Source: a virus (Duplodnaviria; Caudoviricetes). Taken from it: 40,683 nucleotides of DNA. The notes beneath the pieces are model-generated. The model saw nothing but the letters and a program-made list of their open reading frames with translations. It was not told the DNA's origin and made no database searches. The DNA lies in IMG/VR virus record IMGVR_UViG_3300036546_000170, positions 1 to 40,683 of that record; one strand, 5' to 3'. This document shows positions 804 to 37,644 of this stretch, piece after piece (within the stretch, counting starts at the first letter, position 1; each line of letters begins with the position of its first letter). The position numbers and the translations under genes are program-made.

Positions 804-1235
804 TTATTTTTCCTCCGACTTGAGAGCCGCAATCCGCATCAGCAAGTCATCGTCCGCCTTAGCCACCCAACCAACCGTCTGAATAGGCCCGCCGTCTGTG
901 CCGGTGTGTTCTAGGATCTGCTTCGGTTCGCGCCAGTCCTCTTCGGCGCAGTTAACCAGGGCGAACTTACGGGCGTTCATGGCGGGCGCAGGAACAGACA
1001 TGTCCATGATGCCGGTTTCCAAGAAACGCGCTCTGACCAGCTTGGCGACCTTGCAAGCCTGATCGAACTCAGGGTGCTGTTCACGCCATCCAGTGAGCGT
1101 GTCTCGCGCCACTAGGATGCCTCCACAGAAGGCACTTAAGGAAAAGCCCTTCGCCGCATCCTCAATCACAGCTTCACAGTAAGCAGGATCGTATTTGGTT
1201 GGGCGTCCGACTGCGGGTTTAAGTTCGTCTGTCAT
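804..1235 (-). CDS. terS: Terminase small subunit
   Basis: GRPTKY N-terminus, HTH segment TLTGWREQHPEF, C-terminal EHTGTDGGPIQ typical of TerS proteins. Confidence 0.8.
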   Translation of the reverse strand: MTDELKPAVGRPTKYDPAYCEAVIEDAAKGFSLSAFCGGILVARDTLTGWREQHPEFDQACKVAKLVRARFLETGIMDMSVPAPAMNARKFALVNCAEEDWREPKQILEHTGTDGGPIQTVGWVAKADDDLLMRIAALKSEEK

Positions 1236-15335: not shown

Positions 15336-15619
15336 AAAGGCCAGAACCAAGGCCGCGAATTAGCCTCTGCAATCGCAACAACGGCTTCACGCCGAACGTC
15401 GCACACACGCAAATCGCCATCCCCTGCAAGGATCGCTTTCGACAGATCCCCGATGGTCTGAGCGCCAGAAACGTCCACAGTGGACTCGCACGGCGTCTTG
15501 AGGCTATCGGGGATTACGCTTGTCGCGCAGGCCGATACGTTTATGGCGCAAATCGCCATTAATGCCTTTATCTTAGCGGGAGTTATGGTAGTGTCATGCC
15601 ATGCGCGAAGATGAATCAT
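15332..15619 (-). CDS. Outer-membrane spanin (Rz1-like lipoprotein)
   Basis: KIK plus hydrophobic stretch plus lipobox-like VSAC; Cys/Pro-containing mature part; last gene of the lysis cassette. Confidence 0.65.
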   Translation of the reverse strand: MIHLRAWHDTTITPAKIKALMAICAINVSACATSVIPDSLKTPCESTVDVSGAQTIGDLSKAILAGDGDLRVCDVRREAVVAIAEANSRPWFWPF

Positions 15620-16140
15620 GGAAGCTCCAACTCACTCGTAGGGGAACGCTGCGACAGCGTAGGCCAAAACGAGTAAAAATACCAACTGATGCTGAGTTTA
15701 TCCTCGCCAGAATCGAGCCAGACACAAATGGCGGCTGCTGGCTGTGGACTGGGGCCATAAACACCGGTGGATACGGCTTCTCTAAGCGGGGCTTAGCCCA
15801 CAGGCTTTCTCACAAAACGTTCAAAGGGGAGCCTGGAGATTTTTTAGTGTGCCACACATGCGACGTTCGGTCTTGTGTAAATCCAGACCACCTTTGGCTT
15901 GGGACACACAAAGACAACTCTGATGACATGATGAAAAAACAAAGAGGAGGTTGGCATGAGAAAAAACCACATCACCTCTCAGTCTGGCACGACGGAGATC
16001 AAAATCCGTCCAGCAAACTTAGCAGTTTAAAAGCTGCGGAAATACGATCAAGTTCGCTTCACAAAGTTGATCTTGCTGAAAAATACGGAGTAAGCGTTTC
16101 GACCATAAATCGCATTCTTGCCGGGACTATTTGGATTTAG
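15601..16140 (+). CDS. HNH homing endonuclease
   Basis: CWLWTG..GYG..AHRLS..VCHTCDVRSCVNPDHLWLGTHKDN; C-terminal HTH; AT-rich; antisense to flanking genes. Confidence 0.92.
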   Translation: MREDESWKLQLTRRGTLRQRRPKRVKIPTDAEFILARIEPDTNGGCWLWTGAINTGGYGFSKRGLAHRLSHKTFKGEPGDFLVCHTCDVRSCVNPDHLWLGTHKDNSDDMMKKQRGGWHEKKPHHLSVWHDGDQNPSSKLSSLKAAEIRSSSLHKVDLAEKYGVSVSTINRILAGTIWI

Positions 16141-31945: not shown

Positions 31946-34071
31946 TTGTCCAGATCCCCACCAGGCCGGTTTCGGCTCATTTCAGCGCGCTCTTTAGAGG
32001 CCATCTGCATTTGCGCGAGGTCGTATTCATCCTGCGCCTTTTGTGCAGCCAGACGCGCCTCGAAATCCGCCTTGTCGCGGGCCAACTGCGCCTGCATCTG
32101 CGCCTTCTCGCGCTCAAACTGAAGCATGGCGTCCGAGCGCTCGCGTTCAGCCATCAGACGCGCTTCGGCCTTCATCGCCTCGACCTCTAGCTGTCCTTGA
32201 GCCTTCTGCTTGGCAAGCTCCATGTCAGCCGCAGCCTTCTGCTTGTCGAACTCAAGGCGCTGTTCAATCTCTTGCTGCTTGGCCTGCATCTCCAACATAG
32301 CCGGATCAGGCTTGGGCTGTTGCGGAGGCGCTTCCTCTGGATTGGTGAGGAACGAGTCAGCCGACCGAAACCCAAGGCCACGTTCGAAGGCTTGCTTGGC
32401 GTAGGCGTATATGTTCTCAACGGTCACAAGAGGACCAGATGGACCGCCCTGCATGGTCACAAGCTGCTCAAGCGCCTGCCATCCCTGCTGATACATGACC
32501 ATCTGCTGTTCTTTGCCGCCCGATCCGACGCCAATCTCAACGGTCATGTCATTACGCGAGCCGAACGAGGTCCGGTCGATCTCAACCCACTTGTTCTTTA
32601 GGCGGACGCGGCTGGAGTCCTTGGCGTTCTCGCGGATAACGCGGTGCATGATCAGGAACAAGTCTTTGATACCCGTCTCAGCCAGAATACGGGCCACCAT
32701 GCGAGTGCGCTTCTGAGCCGCTGAGAGCATGATAGACGCGCCCTTAGCAGTATCGTGCAGCGTGTCGGGGTTCAGGCCTTGAGCGTTGCGCATGACGCCC
32801 GAACGCTGCTCGCCCTGAACGCTCATATATTCTAGAGCGCCGAACGCATCGAACGACAGACCACCCGACGACATGGGAGAAATCACCTCGTTCGGTGCGC
32901 CCTTGCCGCGAATAGGCCGGTTAGGTTCGTTCGACAGGAGATCGCGCATCGTCCATTCGTGCGCCTTCTCCATGTTGACATACATGCGCTGGTTCAGCGC
33001 GAAGTTGCCCGAATCGAGCGCCAGGCGAAGCAGCACGGTCTTGATGCGCTGGATCTCAAGCAGCTTGTCGGCAATCGACTGACCGTAGAACTGATGCGCC
33101 ACGGGGTAGGGCGTCATGGCGGCAAAGCACACGTAATCGTGGTCTTCGCTCTCAAGCTCGATTCCGCATGTCGTGTCGGTCAGGACGCGCTTGCGACCGT
33201 CCTTGGTCAGCAGATAGTGTTCGATGACCTCGACAATGCGCTGATCACCATCGCCGCCCACGTCGTTCAGGTCTTCGCCCCCAATAGAGCGCGCCTGCTG
33301 CATGTCAGTATCCATGATGCCGTATGCAGGGAGCTTTGCGACGGTTTCAGCGCTGACACCACGGTTCAGAAGCTCATAGGCCCTGACGCGGGTCCGATGC
33401 CAGTGATAGGGACTTTCCTTGAGGCGCGTGGTGTCCTGCGATACGCCGAAGTCTTCAGGCGGGACCGAATAGACGCGCGCGTAGCCCGAATCAACGCCCT
33501 TGACGGTGTAGTCGTAGGTCGGCTCGCCACCCTCTTCCGGATCAATCTCTGGCCTGGAAATGGGCGTCTCGTCACTTAGGATGACGCGGTCACCATATCG
33601 CTGCACGGCTTGAGCCAGCGAATCCAACGACTGATCTTCAAACTCTTCGTCAGGCTCTTTCTTGTCGCACCACGACACCTTGACGATGCCGGTCTTTACT
33701 TGACACGCATCCTTGATCATGTCGTGCAGGATCAGAAAGCCGTCATTCTCCTTGAAGAAGGCGTAGTTGATGTAGTCAGTTTCTTGCTGGGCGGCCTCTT
33801 CGTCTTCTGGCCCGACCGGCTCAAACGTAACCACGTCCTCAGACCCGGTGAAAATCTCGATCAGATCCGGCATGATCGAGTCGATGGCTTCGGCAACGTC
33901 CTGAGAGACGGCCCGTGAGCGCTTCTCTGGCGCTAGAACGTCGTCAACATCGCCCTTGTAGTAATTAAGGGCGCGTTCCCGTTGCTCGTTGACCTCTTCG
34001 CCACCAAGGCCGGTCGAGCGTGTCCACTCGCTCGCAACCTGGGACAGAAGAGAGTTTTTCGCAGCAGCCAT
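31942..34071 (-). CDS. Portal protein (P22-like, C-terminal helical barrel)
   Basis: RERALNYYKG, FEPVGPEDEEAAQQETDYINY, KTGIVKV; long Gln/Ala coiled-coil C-terminus. Confidence 0.92.
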   Translation of the reverse strand: MAAAKNSLLSQVASEWTRSTGLGGEEVNEQRERALNYYKGDVDDVLAPEKRSRAVSQDVAEAIDSIMPDLIEIFTGSEDVVTFEPVGPEDEEAAQQETDYINYAFFKENDGFLILHDMIKDACQVKTGIVKVSWCDKKEPDEEFEDQSLDSLAQAVQRYGDRVILSDETPISRPEIDPEEGGEPTYDYTVKGVDSGYARVYSVPPEDFGVSQDTTRLKESPYHWHRTRVRAYELLNRGVSAETVAKLPAYGIMDTDMQQARSIGGEDLNDVGGDGDQRIVEVIEHYLLTKDGRKRVLTDTTCGIELESEDHDYVCFAAMTPYPVAHQFYGQSIADKLLEIQRIKTVLLRLALDSGNFALNQRMYVNMEKAHEWTMRDLLSNEPNRPIRGKGAPNEVISPMSSGGLSFDAFGALEYMSVQGEQRSGVMRNAQGLNPDTLHDTAKGASIMLSAAQKRTRMVARILAETGIKDLFLIMHRVIRENAKDSSRVRLKNKWVEIDRTSFGSRNDMTVEIGVGSGGKEQQMVMYQQGWQALEQLVTMQGGPSGPLVTVENIYAYAKQAFERGLGFRSADSFLTNPEEAPPQQPKPDPAMLEMQAKQQEIEQRLEFDKQKAAADMELAKQKAQGQLEVEAMKAEARLMAERERSDAMLQFEREKAQMQAQLARDKADFEARLAAQKAQDEYDLAQMQMASKERAEMSRNRPGGDLDK

Positions 34072-34097
34072 TCGGTCCCGACCTTCTATAGCCTCGG

Positions 34098-34126
34098 CTT
34101 ATACCAACGGTTCGGACGATAAGCAA
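34098..34126 (-). promoter_or_regulatory. Putative promoter for portal/head operon
   Basis: TTGCTT-17 bp-TATAAG with TG extension. Confidence 0.45.
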
Positions 34127-34127
34127 A

Positions 34128-34340
34128 TCAAAGGATGCCTGACGATTCGCCTGTGATTGGCTTGCGGTCGCGCTGCTGTCTCGTCAGGTGCCATTGACCA
34201 CAGTGAGGACATTCATACGGGTAGAGCGTCGCACTCTCTTTAGCCGCTGAGATCATGCCAACAATGCGCGCCCGGTTCTCCGTCTTATACCGCGACTTCT
34301 TGCGGCAGTTGCGGCGGGACAGCGCCTCACCAGCCAGCAT
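34128..34340 (-). CDS. Small Zn-binding protein
   Basis: CRKKSRY...YECPHCGQWHLT. Confidence 0.65.
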   Translation of the reverse strand: MLAGEALSRRNCRKKSRYKTENRARIVGMISAAKESATLYPYECPHCGQWHLTRQQRDRKPITGESSGIL

Positions 34341-35697
34341 AGTTACCGACTTCAAGTTCGCCGTTGCCGTCCATCGTGACGGGCGGCTCATACGCGACAG
34401 CCCCAAGCCCCTTGGCGTCAGCGCCGTGAGAGGCATCATCGTGGTTAGGTCCAAGGCCGATATTGGCCTTGTCGTCCCATTTCTCGTGATAGGCGCGTAG
34501 GCGCTTCAGGCCTGCTGCCGTGCCTTCCTTGTCGAAGCGCATACGGGGGAACAGGCGGCGCAAGGCCTCAATGCGCATATTGGCAGCGCCCGCGCCCTGA
34601 TTAGGGACCACCTTGACGCGGAACCCTGCCTCTTTCAGCGCACCCTCTGGTGTGACCTTGTGAACCGTGTCGTGCTTGCGTCCATCGTGCGGAAGGATGC
34701 AGATGGCGTCGCCATATCCGTTCTTGCGCAGCCAAGCGACGTGCGCATCCATAGGCTGACCTACAGCCTCATAGTATTTCAGGACGCGGATTTCCTCACC
34801 CACCCACTGTTCAATCCAGATTGCGCAGGCGTCGGCCTTGTTGCCCGTGCCGCCCAAGTCCCAAATGGCCCGGTATTCCATCAAAGGGTCTGGCGCGACA
34901 TAGCCGATGCGCTCGTCTAGTTCGGCTTGACGAATCTGCTTGGTGAAGTAAGCACCCCTGTAAATGGTCTTAAAGGCCCCTTCCCAAATGTGCTCGTAGT
35001 TGTCCGGGTCGTTCTCTTGCGCGCGAAGTCGGTCCCGATCCATCTTGGATGTGAACCAAGGATTTTGGGGCCAATTGATTTCTGCCCCCTTGATTAGGGG
35101 GTCAGACCCTGACTCCCATATTTTGCGGATGTTTTTATGAACCCAACTGTTTTCAGTTTCTGGGTTATAGATAAGCCAAAGCTCAGACCCTTCCTCACGG
35201 ATCGTCGGAATCAGCTTCTCCCATGCATCTCCTTGGATGTACTCAGCCTCTTCCGCGAAGCATCGTAGGATTCGTGACTTAGATTTGATGCTGGATAGGT
35301 TGACGGACGTTCCGCTGAAAATGAACTTGATGCGGCCCGAGCGAGTGCGGATGTATTTCTCGCCAACGTCATAGACGGAAGAAAGCCATGGATCAGACTG
35401 GATCGAGTTCTTTAGGTCTTGCAGGCTGGAGTCGTCCAGGCTGTTCATGAACTCTCGAATGCACAAGATTACGCCAGCCACCCCCATGGCATCGAAGATA
35501 GCCCCCTGCGTAGCGAGCATCTTCGTGAAAGCCCAACTTTTTCCCCCGCCGCGCCCTCCTACGCTGAACCGAATATCGGCCTTGCCCTCAAATACAGGGA
35601 TCAGCACTGGAGGAATATCGCTTGCGGTAAGGGGGCAGAACCCTCGCTTGTAAAGCTCAATCTTTGCCGCTGTGATTTCGGCTTGTGTTATTTGCAT
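34327..35697 (-). CDS. terL: Terminase large subunit
   Basis: GGRGGGKS Walker A, FAEEAE Walker B, PTIREEGSE..YNP, WDLG, LPHDG, SHGADA nuclease motifs. Confidence 0.95.
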   Translation of the reverse strand: MQITQAEITAAKIELYKRGFCPLTASDIPPVLIPVFEGKADIRFSVGGRGGGKSWAFTKMLATQGAIFDAMGVAGVILCIREFMNSLDDSSLQDLKNSIQSDPWLSSVYDVGEKYIRTRSGRIKFIFSGTSVNLSSIKSKSRILRCFAEEAEYIQGDAWEKLIPTIREEGSELWLIYNPETENSWVHKNIRKIWESGSDPLIKGAEINWPQNPWFTSKMDRDRLRAQENDPDNYEHIWEGAFKTIYRGAYFTKQIRQAELDERIGYVAPDPLMEYRAIWDLGGTGNKADACAIWIEQWVGEEIRVLKYYEAVGQPMDAHVAWLRKNGYGDAICILPHDGRKHDTVHKVTPEGALKEAGFRVKVVPNQGAGAANMRIEALRRLFPRMRFDKEGTAAGLKRLRAYHEKWDDKANIGLGPNHDDASHGADAKGLGAVAYEPPVTMDGNGELEVGNYAGW

Positions 35698-36362
35698 TGG
35701 CGAAGGTCAATTTTGGAATTGACGGCAACTTCAATGGGGTAGCCAATTTTTAGTCTGTAAGAAATTGTTCCAACACCAACTCCACACAACCGTGATAGCT
35801 GCATCATGGTCATTTCCATCCCACGATATTCCACAATCCGGTTACTGCGTTTGTTGTTCGCTTGCGTATTTGCATCTGTCCATCGACAATTTCCAGGCTC
35901 ATAGTCCCCATTCGTGTCAATGCGATCAATAGTTAGGCCCGGGAGACGGTCGCCCATATCTTCATAGAACGCGGAAAAATCGTCCCATCTTTCGCACACA
36001 CGAATTCCGCGACCACCATAGTCCTTGTAATCGCTATCATTAGGATTGTTGCACCTTGCTCGCATGTCCTTCCATGAGCGATAAGCCTTGGAATGCGCTC
36101 TAGAAAGTCCGTGCGTTGTGTTTCGCGCAACCAAAGTTTCACGCGCTAGGCAGCCGCAACTCTGTGTATGCCCCTGCGTTAAGAGCCAAGCGTTAGCGAC
36201 TTTTTCTTTTCCGCAATCACATACGGCAAGCCAACGGTGGCGACGGGCAGGAGAGTGATCTCGCTCAGACAACCCAATCACAGTAAGGCGACCGAACCTC
36301 TGTCCTGTTCGATCAAGGAGAGGCCTGAGTCTCCGTCCATCTGCGCCTTTGTGTTCTTTCAT
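35688..36362 (-). CDS. HNH-type homing endonuclease
   Basis: GQRFGRLTV, CDCG, SCGC, YGGRGIRVCERW, TIDRIDTNGDYEPGNCRW..QANN; AT-rich. Confidence 0.9.
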   Translation of the reverse strand: MKEHKGADGRRLRPLLDRTGQRFGRLTVIGLSERDHSPARRHRWLAVCDCGKEKVANAWLLTQGHTQSCGCLARETLVARNTTHGLSRAHSKAYRSWKDMRARCNNPNDSDYKDYGGRGIRVCERWDDFSAFYEDMGDRLPGLTIDRIDTNGDYEPGNCRWTDANTQANNKRSNRIVEYRGMEMTMMQLSRLCGVGVGTISYRLKIGYPIEVAVNSKIDLRQCK

Positions 36363-36399
36363 GAGAACAATTTAACACAGAGGGCTGCCGTATGAAAGC

Positions 36400-36468
36400 C
36401 TAAAGGCCGCGACGGTGTAGCTCTAGTTTCGCGCTGACAACATCGGCCTGCGTAATGGTTGTCGTCAC
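36400..36468 (-). pseudogene. Truncated remnant of a terL 5' end (22 codons)
   Basis: AGGA RBS plus GTG; MTTTITQADVVSAKLELHRRGL* aligns to TerL MQITQAEITAAKIELYKRGF (10/18 identical, most others conservative). Confidence 0.8.
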
Positions 36469-36477
36469 ACGGCCATC

Positions 36478-36936
36478 CTACACCGCGCTATTCTGTAGCG
36501 CGATTACCGAGACGCGAACGCCTGATGCGGACCCCGAGAACGGATTGACTGTTTGCGATCCGACCGCGACGCTAATGCCGACAACCGAGACAGCAGCGAG
36601 CGTCGTAGGAGCACCCCTATAACCCCTGACGATGCAGCCGGTGTAGTCAGGCCCGGTCATAACCCAGCTATCCACTTGGAGCGCGACAGGTTGCGTCCCG
36701 CCTGGTGCGATGGGCGTCAGGTCAACGCTTGGCTCGACGGGAAATGAGCGCGTGAATGTCGCGGTCGCCAAGCCCGATCCGTCCAAGGTCACTATGGTTG
36801 CAGACGTGAGGCGGGGGTGCTGGTGATCAGCGCGCGCGAAACGGTCGCTCGTGGCCCCGACAGATCCTGTGCGGCTCTCGCTCGACGGTGTGGCGTCCGC
36901 AGGCATGGGCGGCGGGACGCTTGTAGACTGCGCCAT
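36478..36936 (-). CDS. Virion fiber/decoration-like protein
   Basis: FARADHQHP fiber-type motif; beta-rich Ser/Thr/Val composition. Confidence 0.6.
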   Translation of the reverse strand: MAQSTSVPPPMPADATPSSESRTGSVGATSDRFARADHQHPRLTSATIVTLDGSGLATATFTRSFPVEPSVDLTPIAPGGTQPVALQVDSWVMTGPDYTGCIVRGYRGAPTTLAAVSVVGISVAVGSQTVNPFSGSASGVRVSVIALQNSAV

Positions 36937-36939
36937 CGT

Positions 36940-37347
36940 CTAGAATGTCTCTAGGTAACTGACGATCTGAACACCGCCTGTGGCGATGCCCGCAATCTGC
37001 GCATTGGTTGGGATGGTGACGCTTGCACCGATCACGCCGGGCAGAAGCAGGCCATTCGCCGCCGTCACAGTTCCTGTGCCGATATAAACCGGATTCGTGC
37101 CGTGGTTTGTGATTGTGATCGCTCCACGGCTAGAGCGTGCGGCTGCGATCTGCGTTGAGGTAATGGCGACGCTGACCTGAGCCGTAGCAACGCTCGCAAA
37201 GCCATAGTCTCGCGTAGGGGCGGGATTGGTTGTAGACGCCGCCACTGTGCCATTAGCGCCAGTCGTTGCCACAGGAAACGGAGTCGCCGTACTGACAGAG
37301 GTCCGATTTCCGAACGCATCGCCGGTAAGGAATTGCATCAAGCCCAT
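36940..37347 (-). CDS. Beta-rich virion-like protein
   Basis: ITITNHGTNPVYIG..NGLLL pattern; Thr/Ala-rich. Confidence 0.6.
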   Translation of the reverse strand: MGLMQFLTGDAFGNRTSVSTATPFPVATTGANGTVAASTTNPAPTRDYGFASVATAQVSVAITSTQIAAARSSRGAITITNHGTNPVYIGTGTVTAANGLLLPGVIGASVTIPTNAQIAGIATGGVQIVSYLETF

Positions 37348-37431
37348 AGCGTAACCCCGTTAATCTAACCTCGTATAGCAAAACCGCCCGCCCCAATCAA
37401 GGAACGAGCGGCCAAGCTGTGTCGGGCTGCT

Positions 37432-37644
37432 TTAGCCGTCCAGGTTCTTGTCAGACTTGCGCTGGACAGCCTCGGGAACCTTGCCCTTGATGACTTCCTC
37501 ACGCTCGGCTTCGTCAGCCTGAGCCTGTGCGACGTTGTGCTTGTGGTTCTCTTCGTCAATGCGACGCATCTGGCGGTTCGCATCGTTGTCGAGATTGCGG
37601 GCGTCGTATTCGCCGTCGTGCGGATTGGGGGCCTTGGTGGTCAT
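37432..37644 (-). CDS. Hydrophilic hypothetical protein
   Basis: AGGAG RBS; ORF track. Confidence 0.65.
   Translation of the reverse strand: MTTKAPNPHDGEYDARNLDNDANRQMRRIDEENHKHNVAQAQADEAEREEVIKGKVPEAVQRKSDKNLDG

What the first reader, a model, noticed from the sequence alone, without database searches (positions are those of the whole stretch)
35000..36468. HNH cassette separates a terL 5' stub from a complete terL with a diverged replacement start
Seen: a 22-codon ORF with RBS at 36468-36400 (MTTTITQADVVSAKLELHRRGL*) is a clear homolog of the TerL N-terminus (MQITQAEITAAKIELYKRGF), with the HNH gene between them. The functional terL ATG (35697) lies inside the HNH 3' end. The 5' part of terL is AT-richer than its 3' part (hand count: 25/60 GC at 35101-35160 vs 38/60 at 34561-34620). 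Known: free-standing homing endonucleases often target terminase genes. Inference: a non-splicing selfish element entered an essential gene and avoided lethality by carrying a recoded, cleavage-resistant 5' portion of that gene (possibly the whole ATPase domain), leaving a chimeric TerL and a fossil stub.
Basis: partly seen in the sequence, partly recalled or inferred. Interest (0 to 1): 0.82.

Follow-up and report, generated by a model that had tools for sequence, protein, structure and literature searches.

The report
Phage nuclease swaps terminase motor half
This phage's essential DNA-packaging gene is a hybrid whose front (motor) half has a different origin from its back half and sits behind a nuclease gene, with the old gene start left as a 22-codon stub; a distant phage shows the same layout, so this is likely a selfish element that spreads by cutting and replacing half of the gene without splicing.

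Summary
Observation confirmed and extended. Stub (36400-36468), HNH gene (35688-36362) and terL (34327-35697) are real. TerL is a chimera joined near codon 230 (about 35010), between the ATPase and nuclease halves: 95% identical to P0002 after the join and 70% before it; 84% to L002 before and 59% after. L002 has the same HNH and overlap; its HNH-less relative L128 shares 223 of 224 nuclease-half residues but only 67% of the ATPase half. A distant phage (L082, TerL 31% identical) repeats the layout: its stub matches HNH-less relatives (26 of 26 residues), and its swap ends at the same motif. Each of the three cassettes starts with a promoter-like sequence. Best reading: a mobile unit of promoter + HNH + ATPase half that likely homes without splicing, working like yeast WHO elements but on a 5' half. 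Cutting is untested, 3 of 5 loci with this ATPase class lack the HNH, and the DNA around P0002 was not seen. I found no phage case in print; this scan noted similar layouts on other DNA. New variant of a known kind; interest 0.66.

The parts
36473..36479 (-). Shine-Dalgarno-like sequence of the original terL start, overlapping the stop of the upstream gene
   Evidence: sequence; kept in L124 and in contigs of runs X3 and X4, where the upstream genes differ
36400..36468 (-). 22-codon stub of the former terL 5' end
   Evidence: profile hit E 3e-9; best of 40 N-terminus rows is P0002 (14/21), own TerL 10/21
36363..36399 (-). Cassette leader with promoter-like sequence (-35 at 36391-36396, 16 nt, TG, -10 at 36369-36374, 6 nt, ATG); predicted leaderless transcript
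   Evidence: shared with L002 (0 of 2000 shuffles); post hoc score in top 0.1% of background; standard scanner found no site
35688..36362 (-). 224-aa His-less (PacI-like) HNH endonuclease with N-terminal Cys motifs
   Evidence: PHROG 374; family-invariant R147, Y154, N158, Q167, N170 kept; best fold match PacI, Z 6.1, rmsd 2.5, 76 aligned
35688..35697 (-). 10-nt overlap of HNH stop and terL start; likely translational coupling
   Evidence: sequence; same overlap in L002
35011..35697 (-). Incoming terL 5' half (codons 1-229, ATPase domain, class A allele)
   Evidence: 84% to L002, 91% to L129, 70% to P0002; tree
34993..35022 (-). Right-hand junction, codons 226-235, at the DPDNY motif
   Evidence: informative sites; same break in other pairs and in L082
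34327..35010 (-). Resident terL 3' half (codons 230-456, nuclease domain)
   Evidence: 216/227 identical to P0002, 132/225 to L002

Best explanation
The locus is a chimeric terminase gene whose ATPase half (codons 1-229) came in together with the HNH gene and a promoter-like leader, replacing the resident half and leaving its first 22 codons as a stub; the HNH likely drives this by cutting alleles that lack the cassette. Inferred steps: in a mixed infection the HNH would cut or nick the other phage's terL in its 5' half, probably close to the DPDNY linker; repair would cross over in the conserved DPDNY..HIWEG codons on the right and copy leftwards through ATPase half, HNH and promoter. The left end joins wherever some likeness exists: a shared terminator hairpin in L002 (no stub), or a few matching bases inside terL in the window (codon 22) and in L082 (codon 27), which leaves a stub. 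Because the cassette brings a promoter and a terL start that overlaps the HNH stop, full-length TerL would still be made with no splicing. The incoming allele is predicted to resist the HNH.
For: Shown: chimerism (max-chi 0 of 10,000 permutations against two reference proteins; AU p 9.7e-05 against window+P0002 in the ATPase half; AU p 3.6e-80 against window+L002 in the nuclease half). Occupied/empty pair 1: L002 (HNH) and L128 (none) share terS 95.5% nt and nuclease half 223/224 aa, ATPase half 132/198. Occupied/empty pair 2: L082 (HNH, stub) against L294/L295 (none): stub 75/81 nt and 26/26 aa to their terL start but 56/81 and 21/26 to its own; TerL 83% before residue 196 and 100% after; the DP motif there aligns with window residue 230 although the two TerLs are 31% identical. 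The three terL-linked HNHs fall in one 17-row cluster (SH-like 91) whose other 14 rows have no DNA context; of 76 genes downstream of family members only the window's and L082's were terminases (L002 not in that scan). Promoter-like sequence starts within 4 nt of the left junction in 3 of 3 cassettes. GC3 drops in the ATPase half of both HNH-bearing clade loci (0.61/0.69; 0.64/0.77) but not in L128 (0.79/0.77). Known: free-standing HEGs cut hundreds of bases from their gene, and one-sided repair with microhomology junctions occurs in T4 (PMC2988022, passages).
Against: No cleavage data. Class A ATPase halves occur without an HNH in 3 of 5 loci with context (L126, L129, L130); 0 of 7 class B loci have one, which is not significant (hand-computed p 0.15). 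The window's ATPase half is closer to HNH-less L129 (91%) than to L002 (84%). A/B swaps are common in the clade (8 changes on the nuclease tree), mostly with unknown context. The DNA around P0002 was not seen, and the stub prefers P0002 by a small margin (14/21 against 13/21 for five other rows). The two-way break for window/P0002 falls at residue 266, not 230, and 5 of 11 pairs break elsewhere (224-274). L082 shows no GC3 break (0.61/0.59). The promoter score was defined after seeing the pattern and the standard scanner found no promoter. The fold match is middling (Z 6.1) and Foldseek gave no hit at E 0.001 or better.
Confidence: 0.68

Rival explanations
1. Ordinary domain shuffling: ATPase halves swap by homologous recombination at the conserved linker, perhaps favoured by host sensors of terminase or by fit to TerS and portal, and the HNH only rides along with one allele. 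The stub is the scar of a non-homologous left end with no homing involved.
For: Class A without HNH in 3 of 5 loci; 8 A/B changes on the nuclease tree; the linker is the one place where a swap keeps both domains whole (established two-domain layout of TerL). Avs2 and Upx sense terminases, Upx the ATPase core by a model (PMC13601566, abstract).
Against: Without a cut there is no evident reason for a one-sided event that destroys the resident start. In 2 of 169 distinct terL loci a clear stub was found and both have this HNH family between stub and gene (L082 entered the set through the HNH search). 4 of 68 HNH-family loci show stub-HNH-gene, at three kinds of host gene.
Confidence: 0.22
2. Two separate events: the HNH first inserted at codon 22 with only a short new start, and the ATPase or nuclease half was exchanged later by unrelated recombination.
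For: Only the start overlapping the HNH stop and codons 1-20 are closer to L002 than to L129; from codon 31 on the window is closer to L129, so later exchange within the ATPase half did occur.
Against: In L082 the stub and everything after residue 196 match the same HNH-less relatives while all between is foreign, which one event explains. L002/L128 shows the same single block.
Confidence: 0.07
3. The HNH is a packaging cofactor like HK97 gp74, or lies in an intron that is spliced out to join the stub to terL.
For: HNH genes next to terminase can be cofactors (PMC10448857, Discussion part 1). An in-frame U/G splice pair can be drawn by eye between stub codon 19 and terL codon 18.
Against: Absent from 10 of 12 clade loci. 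No Rfam match at E up to 1 in 34000-37600, only 37 nt lie between stub and HNH, and L002 has the same HNH-terL overlap with no stub, so the overlapped ATG must serve as start.
Confidence: 0.03

Closest known systems
WHO elements at FBA1 of Torulaspora and Lachancea yeasts (PMC7282813, abstract passages; bioRxiv 10.64898/2026.08.13.744650, abstract, Introduction and Discussion)
   Same: Endonuclease gene plus a variant half of an essential gene; no splicing; chimeric gene whose halves have different phylogenies; relic of the old gene end.
   Different: Phage, HNH rather than LAGLIDADG; 5' half replaced, so the unit brings a promoter and start; most of the old half is deleted (22 of 229 codons left); no tandem clusters seen; cleavage not shown.
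Mobile endonuclease ORFs of fungal mitochondria that create hybrid genes: Allomyces atp6, Glomus atp6/atp9/cox2/nad3, Ophiostoma rps3 (PMC3630166 and PMC4019555, passages)
   Same: Endonuclease carries a foreign gene end; native end displaced, partly or fully replaced.
   Different: Those replace C-termini in organelles with LAGLIDADG or GIY-YIG enzymes; here a whole N-terminal catalytic domain.
Intronless homing by free-standing T4 endonucleases (seg and mob genes) (PMC2988022, passages; PMC12724721, passages)
   Same: Free-standing nuclease beside an essential gene; distant cut site; co-conversion of the allele; one-sided repair with microhomology described.
   Different: In the passages read those genes sit between genes; no replacement of a gene start or stub is described.
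HEGs near phage terminase genes and HEG islands (PMC10448857, sections 19 and 25 part 1 and passages)
   Same: Terminase neighbourhoods are HEG hot spots; cargo travels with HEGs.
   Different: Whole genes or spliced exons; no half-gene swap in the parts read. Its supplementary tables were not read.
PacI-type His-Me finger nucleases (PDB 3m7k; PMC5714182 and PMC4081073, passages)
   Same: No catalytic His; invariant Tyr; best fold match of the model over residues 85-174.
   Different: Z 6.1 only; residue-level match not shown by the tool; PacI is a restriction enzyme.

Membership tests
WHO elements | Endonuclease gene directly beside a variant half of an essential host gene | tested here: met
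WHO elements | The two halves of the host gene have different phylogenies | tested here: met
   AU tests, (groups chosen after seeing trees)
WHO elements | No RNA or protein splicing | tested here: inconclusive
   no Rfam match, complete terL ORF, L002 lacks a stub; no RNA data
WHO elements | Allele-specific cleavage of the host gene, own allele resistant | not testable with these tools
   needs an enzyme assay
WHO elements | LAGLIDADG plus zinc finger enzyme, host gene FBA1, 3' half replaced | tested here: not met
   HNH family, host gene terL, 5' half
WHO elements | Displaced half kept from the cut site on; tandem clusters | tested here: not met
   only 22 (window) or 27 (L082) codons remain; one HNH per locus in 3 of 3
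Free-standing phage homing endonuclease | Patchy presence among close relatives | tested here: met
   2 of 12 clade loci; L082 against L294/L295
Free-standing phage homing endonuclease | Intact nuclease domain plus DNA-binding parts | tested here: inconclusive
   family-invariant residues kept; no Pfam hit at E 0.01; PacI fold Z 6.1
Free-standing phage homing endonuclease | Cuts a nearby gene of phages lacking it and is over-inherited | not testable with these tools
   needs crosses or assays
HK97 gp74-type packaging HNH | Conserved part of the packaging module | tested here: not met
   absent from 10 of 12 clade loci
Group I intron with HEG | Ribozyme core between the exons | tested here: not met
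   37 nt between stub and HNH, HNH overlaps terL; no Rfam match

The most novel reading that the evidence does not exclude
A family of phage WHO-like elements (promoter + PacI-type HNH + entire TerL ATPase domain) cuts terL next to the ATPase-nuclease linker and is the engine behind the repeated ATPase-domain swaps in these terminases, with an arms race between HNH specificity and the codons before the linker; HNH-less class A loci are products of co-conversion or HNH loss, and coupling of terL translation to the HNH frame protects the element from decay.
Probability: 0.45. Interest if true: 0.82.

Novelty: new variant of a known kind. Interest (0 to 1): 0.66.

Why it matters
WHO elements are described as a rare third class of homing element, so far in yeasts (bioRxiv 10.64898/2026.08.13.744650). 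A phage counterpart with two occupied/empty pairs and a junction fixed to about ten codons gives ready substrates for a cleavage test. It would show a selfish gene moving the whole motor domain of an essential enzyme between phages with different portals. It also warns that TerL, a standard marker for phage trees, can be two genes in one: in this clade identical nuclease halves carry ATPase halves only 67% alike.

Tried and rejected
Degenerate stub in L002: suggested by a gappy alignment, not above chance (473 and 642 of 2000 shuffles). Splicing or ribosomal bypass from stub to terL: rejected. Sigma-70 scanner: no promoter in window 35600-37600 or L002 3900-5100. Profile search of solved structures with the HNH alignment: no match; Foldseek: none at E 0.001 or better. 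INPHARED: no cultured relative above 60% identity. Rhizobium phage RHph_Y1_10 has an annotated homing endonuclease overlapping its terL start; I saw no stub in its ORF list. L274 scored 51 against a null of 48 in the stub screen and was set aside as marginal. L417 (SSB) looked like a stub but was not among the top rows of the stricter screen. Literature searches without a phage half-gene replacement in the listings: (open-access library only; most hits seen as listings).

Full report
Setting. The window is a 40.7-kb phage contig with major head, scaffold, SU10-type portal, primase-helicase and a terS at 804-1235. No cultured phage has a TerL above 60% identity. The finding lies on the minus strand.

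Observation. All coordinates hold. The stub 36400-36468 is hit at E 3e-9 by a profile of related TerL starts; the best unrelated hit in 292 loci was E 0.58. The HNH gene (PHROG 374) begins 37 nt after the stub's stop and overlaps the terL ATG by 10 nt. The locus is found again in L001 (identical over 11,162 nt) and L124 (99.8%), and a contig of run X3 spans the later junction with 1 difference. L124 and contigs of runs X3 and X4 keep stub and HNH but have other DNA upstream of 36480.

TerL is a chimera. Among 120 listed homologues, P0002 matches the window at 216/227 residues from residue 230 on but 139/198 in residues 28-229. L002 gives the reverse, 132/225 and 170/202. Three-way informative sites put the switch at residues 229-241 (0 of 10,000 permutations for both references). 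Trees of the halves disagree. The ATPase tree (43 rows) has two supported classes, A and B, and rejects window+P0002 (AU p 9.7e-05). The nuclease tree (37 rows, L128 and P0033 left out) rejects window+L002 (p 3.6e-80) and needs 8 A/B changes. Both groups were named after the first trees were seen. Of 11 pairs examined, 6 break at residue 230, in four nuclease lineages; the others break at 224-274, window/P0002 itself at 266 because it has a few differences in 241-265. The composition break is real but weak (GC3 139/230 against 157/226, p 0.05).

Occupied and empty alleles. Twelve distinct clade loci have DNA context; the window and L002 carry the HNH, ten do not, and only the window's phage has a stub. 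L002 has a 78% identical HNH, the same overlap, a different portal and gene order, and DNA likeness to the window from 36379 to 34565. Its HNH-less relative L128 shares terS (95.5% nt), the next small gene (91.5%), a terminator hairpin and the nuclease half (90-98% nt, 223/224 aa), but only 50-75% nt in the ATPase half; in L002 the cassette starts right after the terminator and a 71-codon gene is gone. Against a tight link: class A also occurs without HNH in L126, L129 and L130, and L129 is the window's closest ATPase half (184/202). Among 40 N-terminus rows the stub is closest to P0002 (14/21), five rows reach 13/21, and the window's own TerL 10/21. The DNA around P0002 could not be fetched, so the empty allele of the window's own lineage is not seen.

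An independent replicate. A screen of 169 distinct terL loci for upstream copies of the terL start gave two clear cases, the window's phage and L082. L082 reads terS, two small genes, 27-codon stub, HNH (50% identical), terL overlapping the HNH stop. Its HNH-less relatives L294 and L295 start like the stub (75/81 nt, 26/26 aa) rather than like L082's working start (56/81, 21/26). L294 and L082 are 83% identical before residue 196 and 100% after. The DP motif there aligns with window residue 230 in proteins 31% identical. L082 has no GC3 break. The three terL-linked HNHs lie in one 17-row cluster of a 110-row FastTree (SH-like 91, not starred; 14 rows lack context). In the wider family, 4 of 68 testable loci show stub-HNH-gene above 4,556 mismatched pairs (p 0.0002 or less): the two terL cases, a D12 adenine methylase (L087) and an unnamed gene (L373); chimerism was not checked for the last two.

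Left end and expression. The 38 nt before the HNH start are shared by window and L002 (0 of 2000 shuffles). In all three cassettes a -35-like hexamer begins within 4 nt of the left junction, followed by 16-17 nt, TG, a -10-like hexamer, 6-7 nt and ATG; each scores in the top 0.10-0.14% of background, but the score was defined after seeing the pattern, and the standard scanner found nothing in the two regions scanned. I infer an own promoter and a leaderless HNH message. The stub's last codons resemble the terminator tail that precedes the cassette in L002 (6 of 7 bases), which suggests a microhomology join (inference). I see no Shine-Dalgarno before the terL ATG in window or L002, so terL is likely translated by coupling to the HNH stop.

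The enzyme. It keeps all residues invariant in an 88-sequence alignment, among them R147, Y154, N158, Q167 and N170, and Cys motifs at 48-50 and 69-71. The model (pLDDT 93) has PacI as best match (Z 6.1, rmsd 2.5, 76 residues); Foldseek was not significant. PacI uses Tyr in place of the general-base His (PMC5714182, PMC4081073, passages); Y154 in that role is my inference.

Mechanism. Shown: chimeric gene, position of the join, co-occurrence with the HNH, empty alleles, replicate. Inferred: cutting of cassette-less alleles, resistance of the incoming allele, one-sided repair, promoter, coupling. T4 work gives precedent for distant cut sites and for one-sided repair with microhomology junctions (PMC2988022, passages). 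Confidence 0.68; plain domain shuffling with a passenger HNH 0.22 (host terminase sensors could favour swaps, PMC13601566, abstract); two separate events 0.07; cofactor or intron 0.03.

Comparison and novelty. It works like a WHO element (endonuclease plus replacement half gene, no splicing) and like mitochondrial mobile ORFs, but it is not a member of either: other enzyme family, host gene and gene end, and the old half is mostly deleted. Six searches of the open-access library listed no phage case; subscription papers and the supplements of PMC10448857 were not seen and may hold one. Earlier notes of this scan describe similar layouts in other phages; they are unchecked and were read after I had reached this reading. 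Verdict: real, new variant of a known kind, interest 0.66.

Noticed in passing
L082:3881-5997: Second stub-HNH-terL cassette in a distant terminase lineage, with HNH-less relatives L294 and L295.
   Followed up: yes
L087:3907-5376 (HNH identical in L088, L090): 9-codon stub, promoter-like sequence, related HNH and a full D12 adenine methylase gene with the same start.
   Followed up: partly
L373:2436-3462: Stub of about 29 codons, related HNH, then a full homologous Cys-rich gene of no Pfam family.
   Followed up: partly
window 36478-37347: Two genes (152 and 135 codons) form a variable block: absent from L124 and from runs X3-X5, where a short remnant ORF ends at the same stop; similar genes lie downstream of terL in L002.
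   Followed up: partly
window 804-1235: terS lies far from terL, about 5 kb upstream if the contig is read as a circle.
   Followed up: no
window 15601-16140: A second HNH gene of another PHROG family, on the plus strand facing the endolysin gene.
   Followed up: no
P0012 (566 aa): A clade TerL about 110 residues longer with Pfam PF13403 (recalled as a Hint domain), probably an intein in the same gene family.
   Followed up: no
P0263 and P0271: Another ATPase-half swap (74% before residue 191, 100% after) in the L082 lineage; context unknown.
   Followed up: partly
L123:1587-3053 (Rhizobium phage RHph_Y1_10): Two annotated endonuclease genes flank the small gene before terL; one overlaps the terL start by 20 nt.
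   Followed up: partly
L225:2942-3895: A 318-aa HNH of another family (PHROG 1891) directly upstream of a related terL; no stub in the screen.
   Followed up: no
L002:4267-4296 and L126, L128, L151, L162: A near-identical terminator hairpin precedes the variable slot before terL in several phages and may serve as a crossover point.
   Followed up: partly
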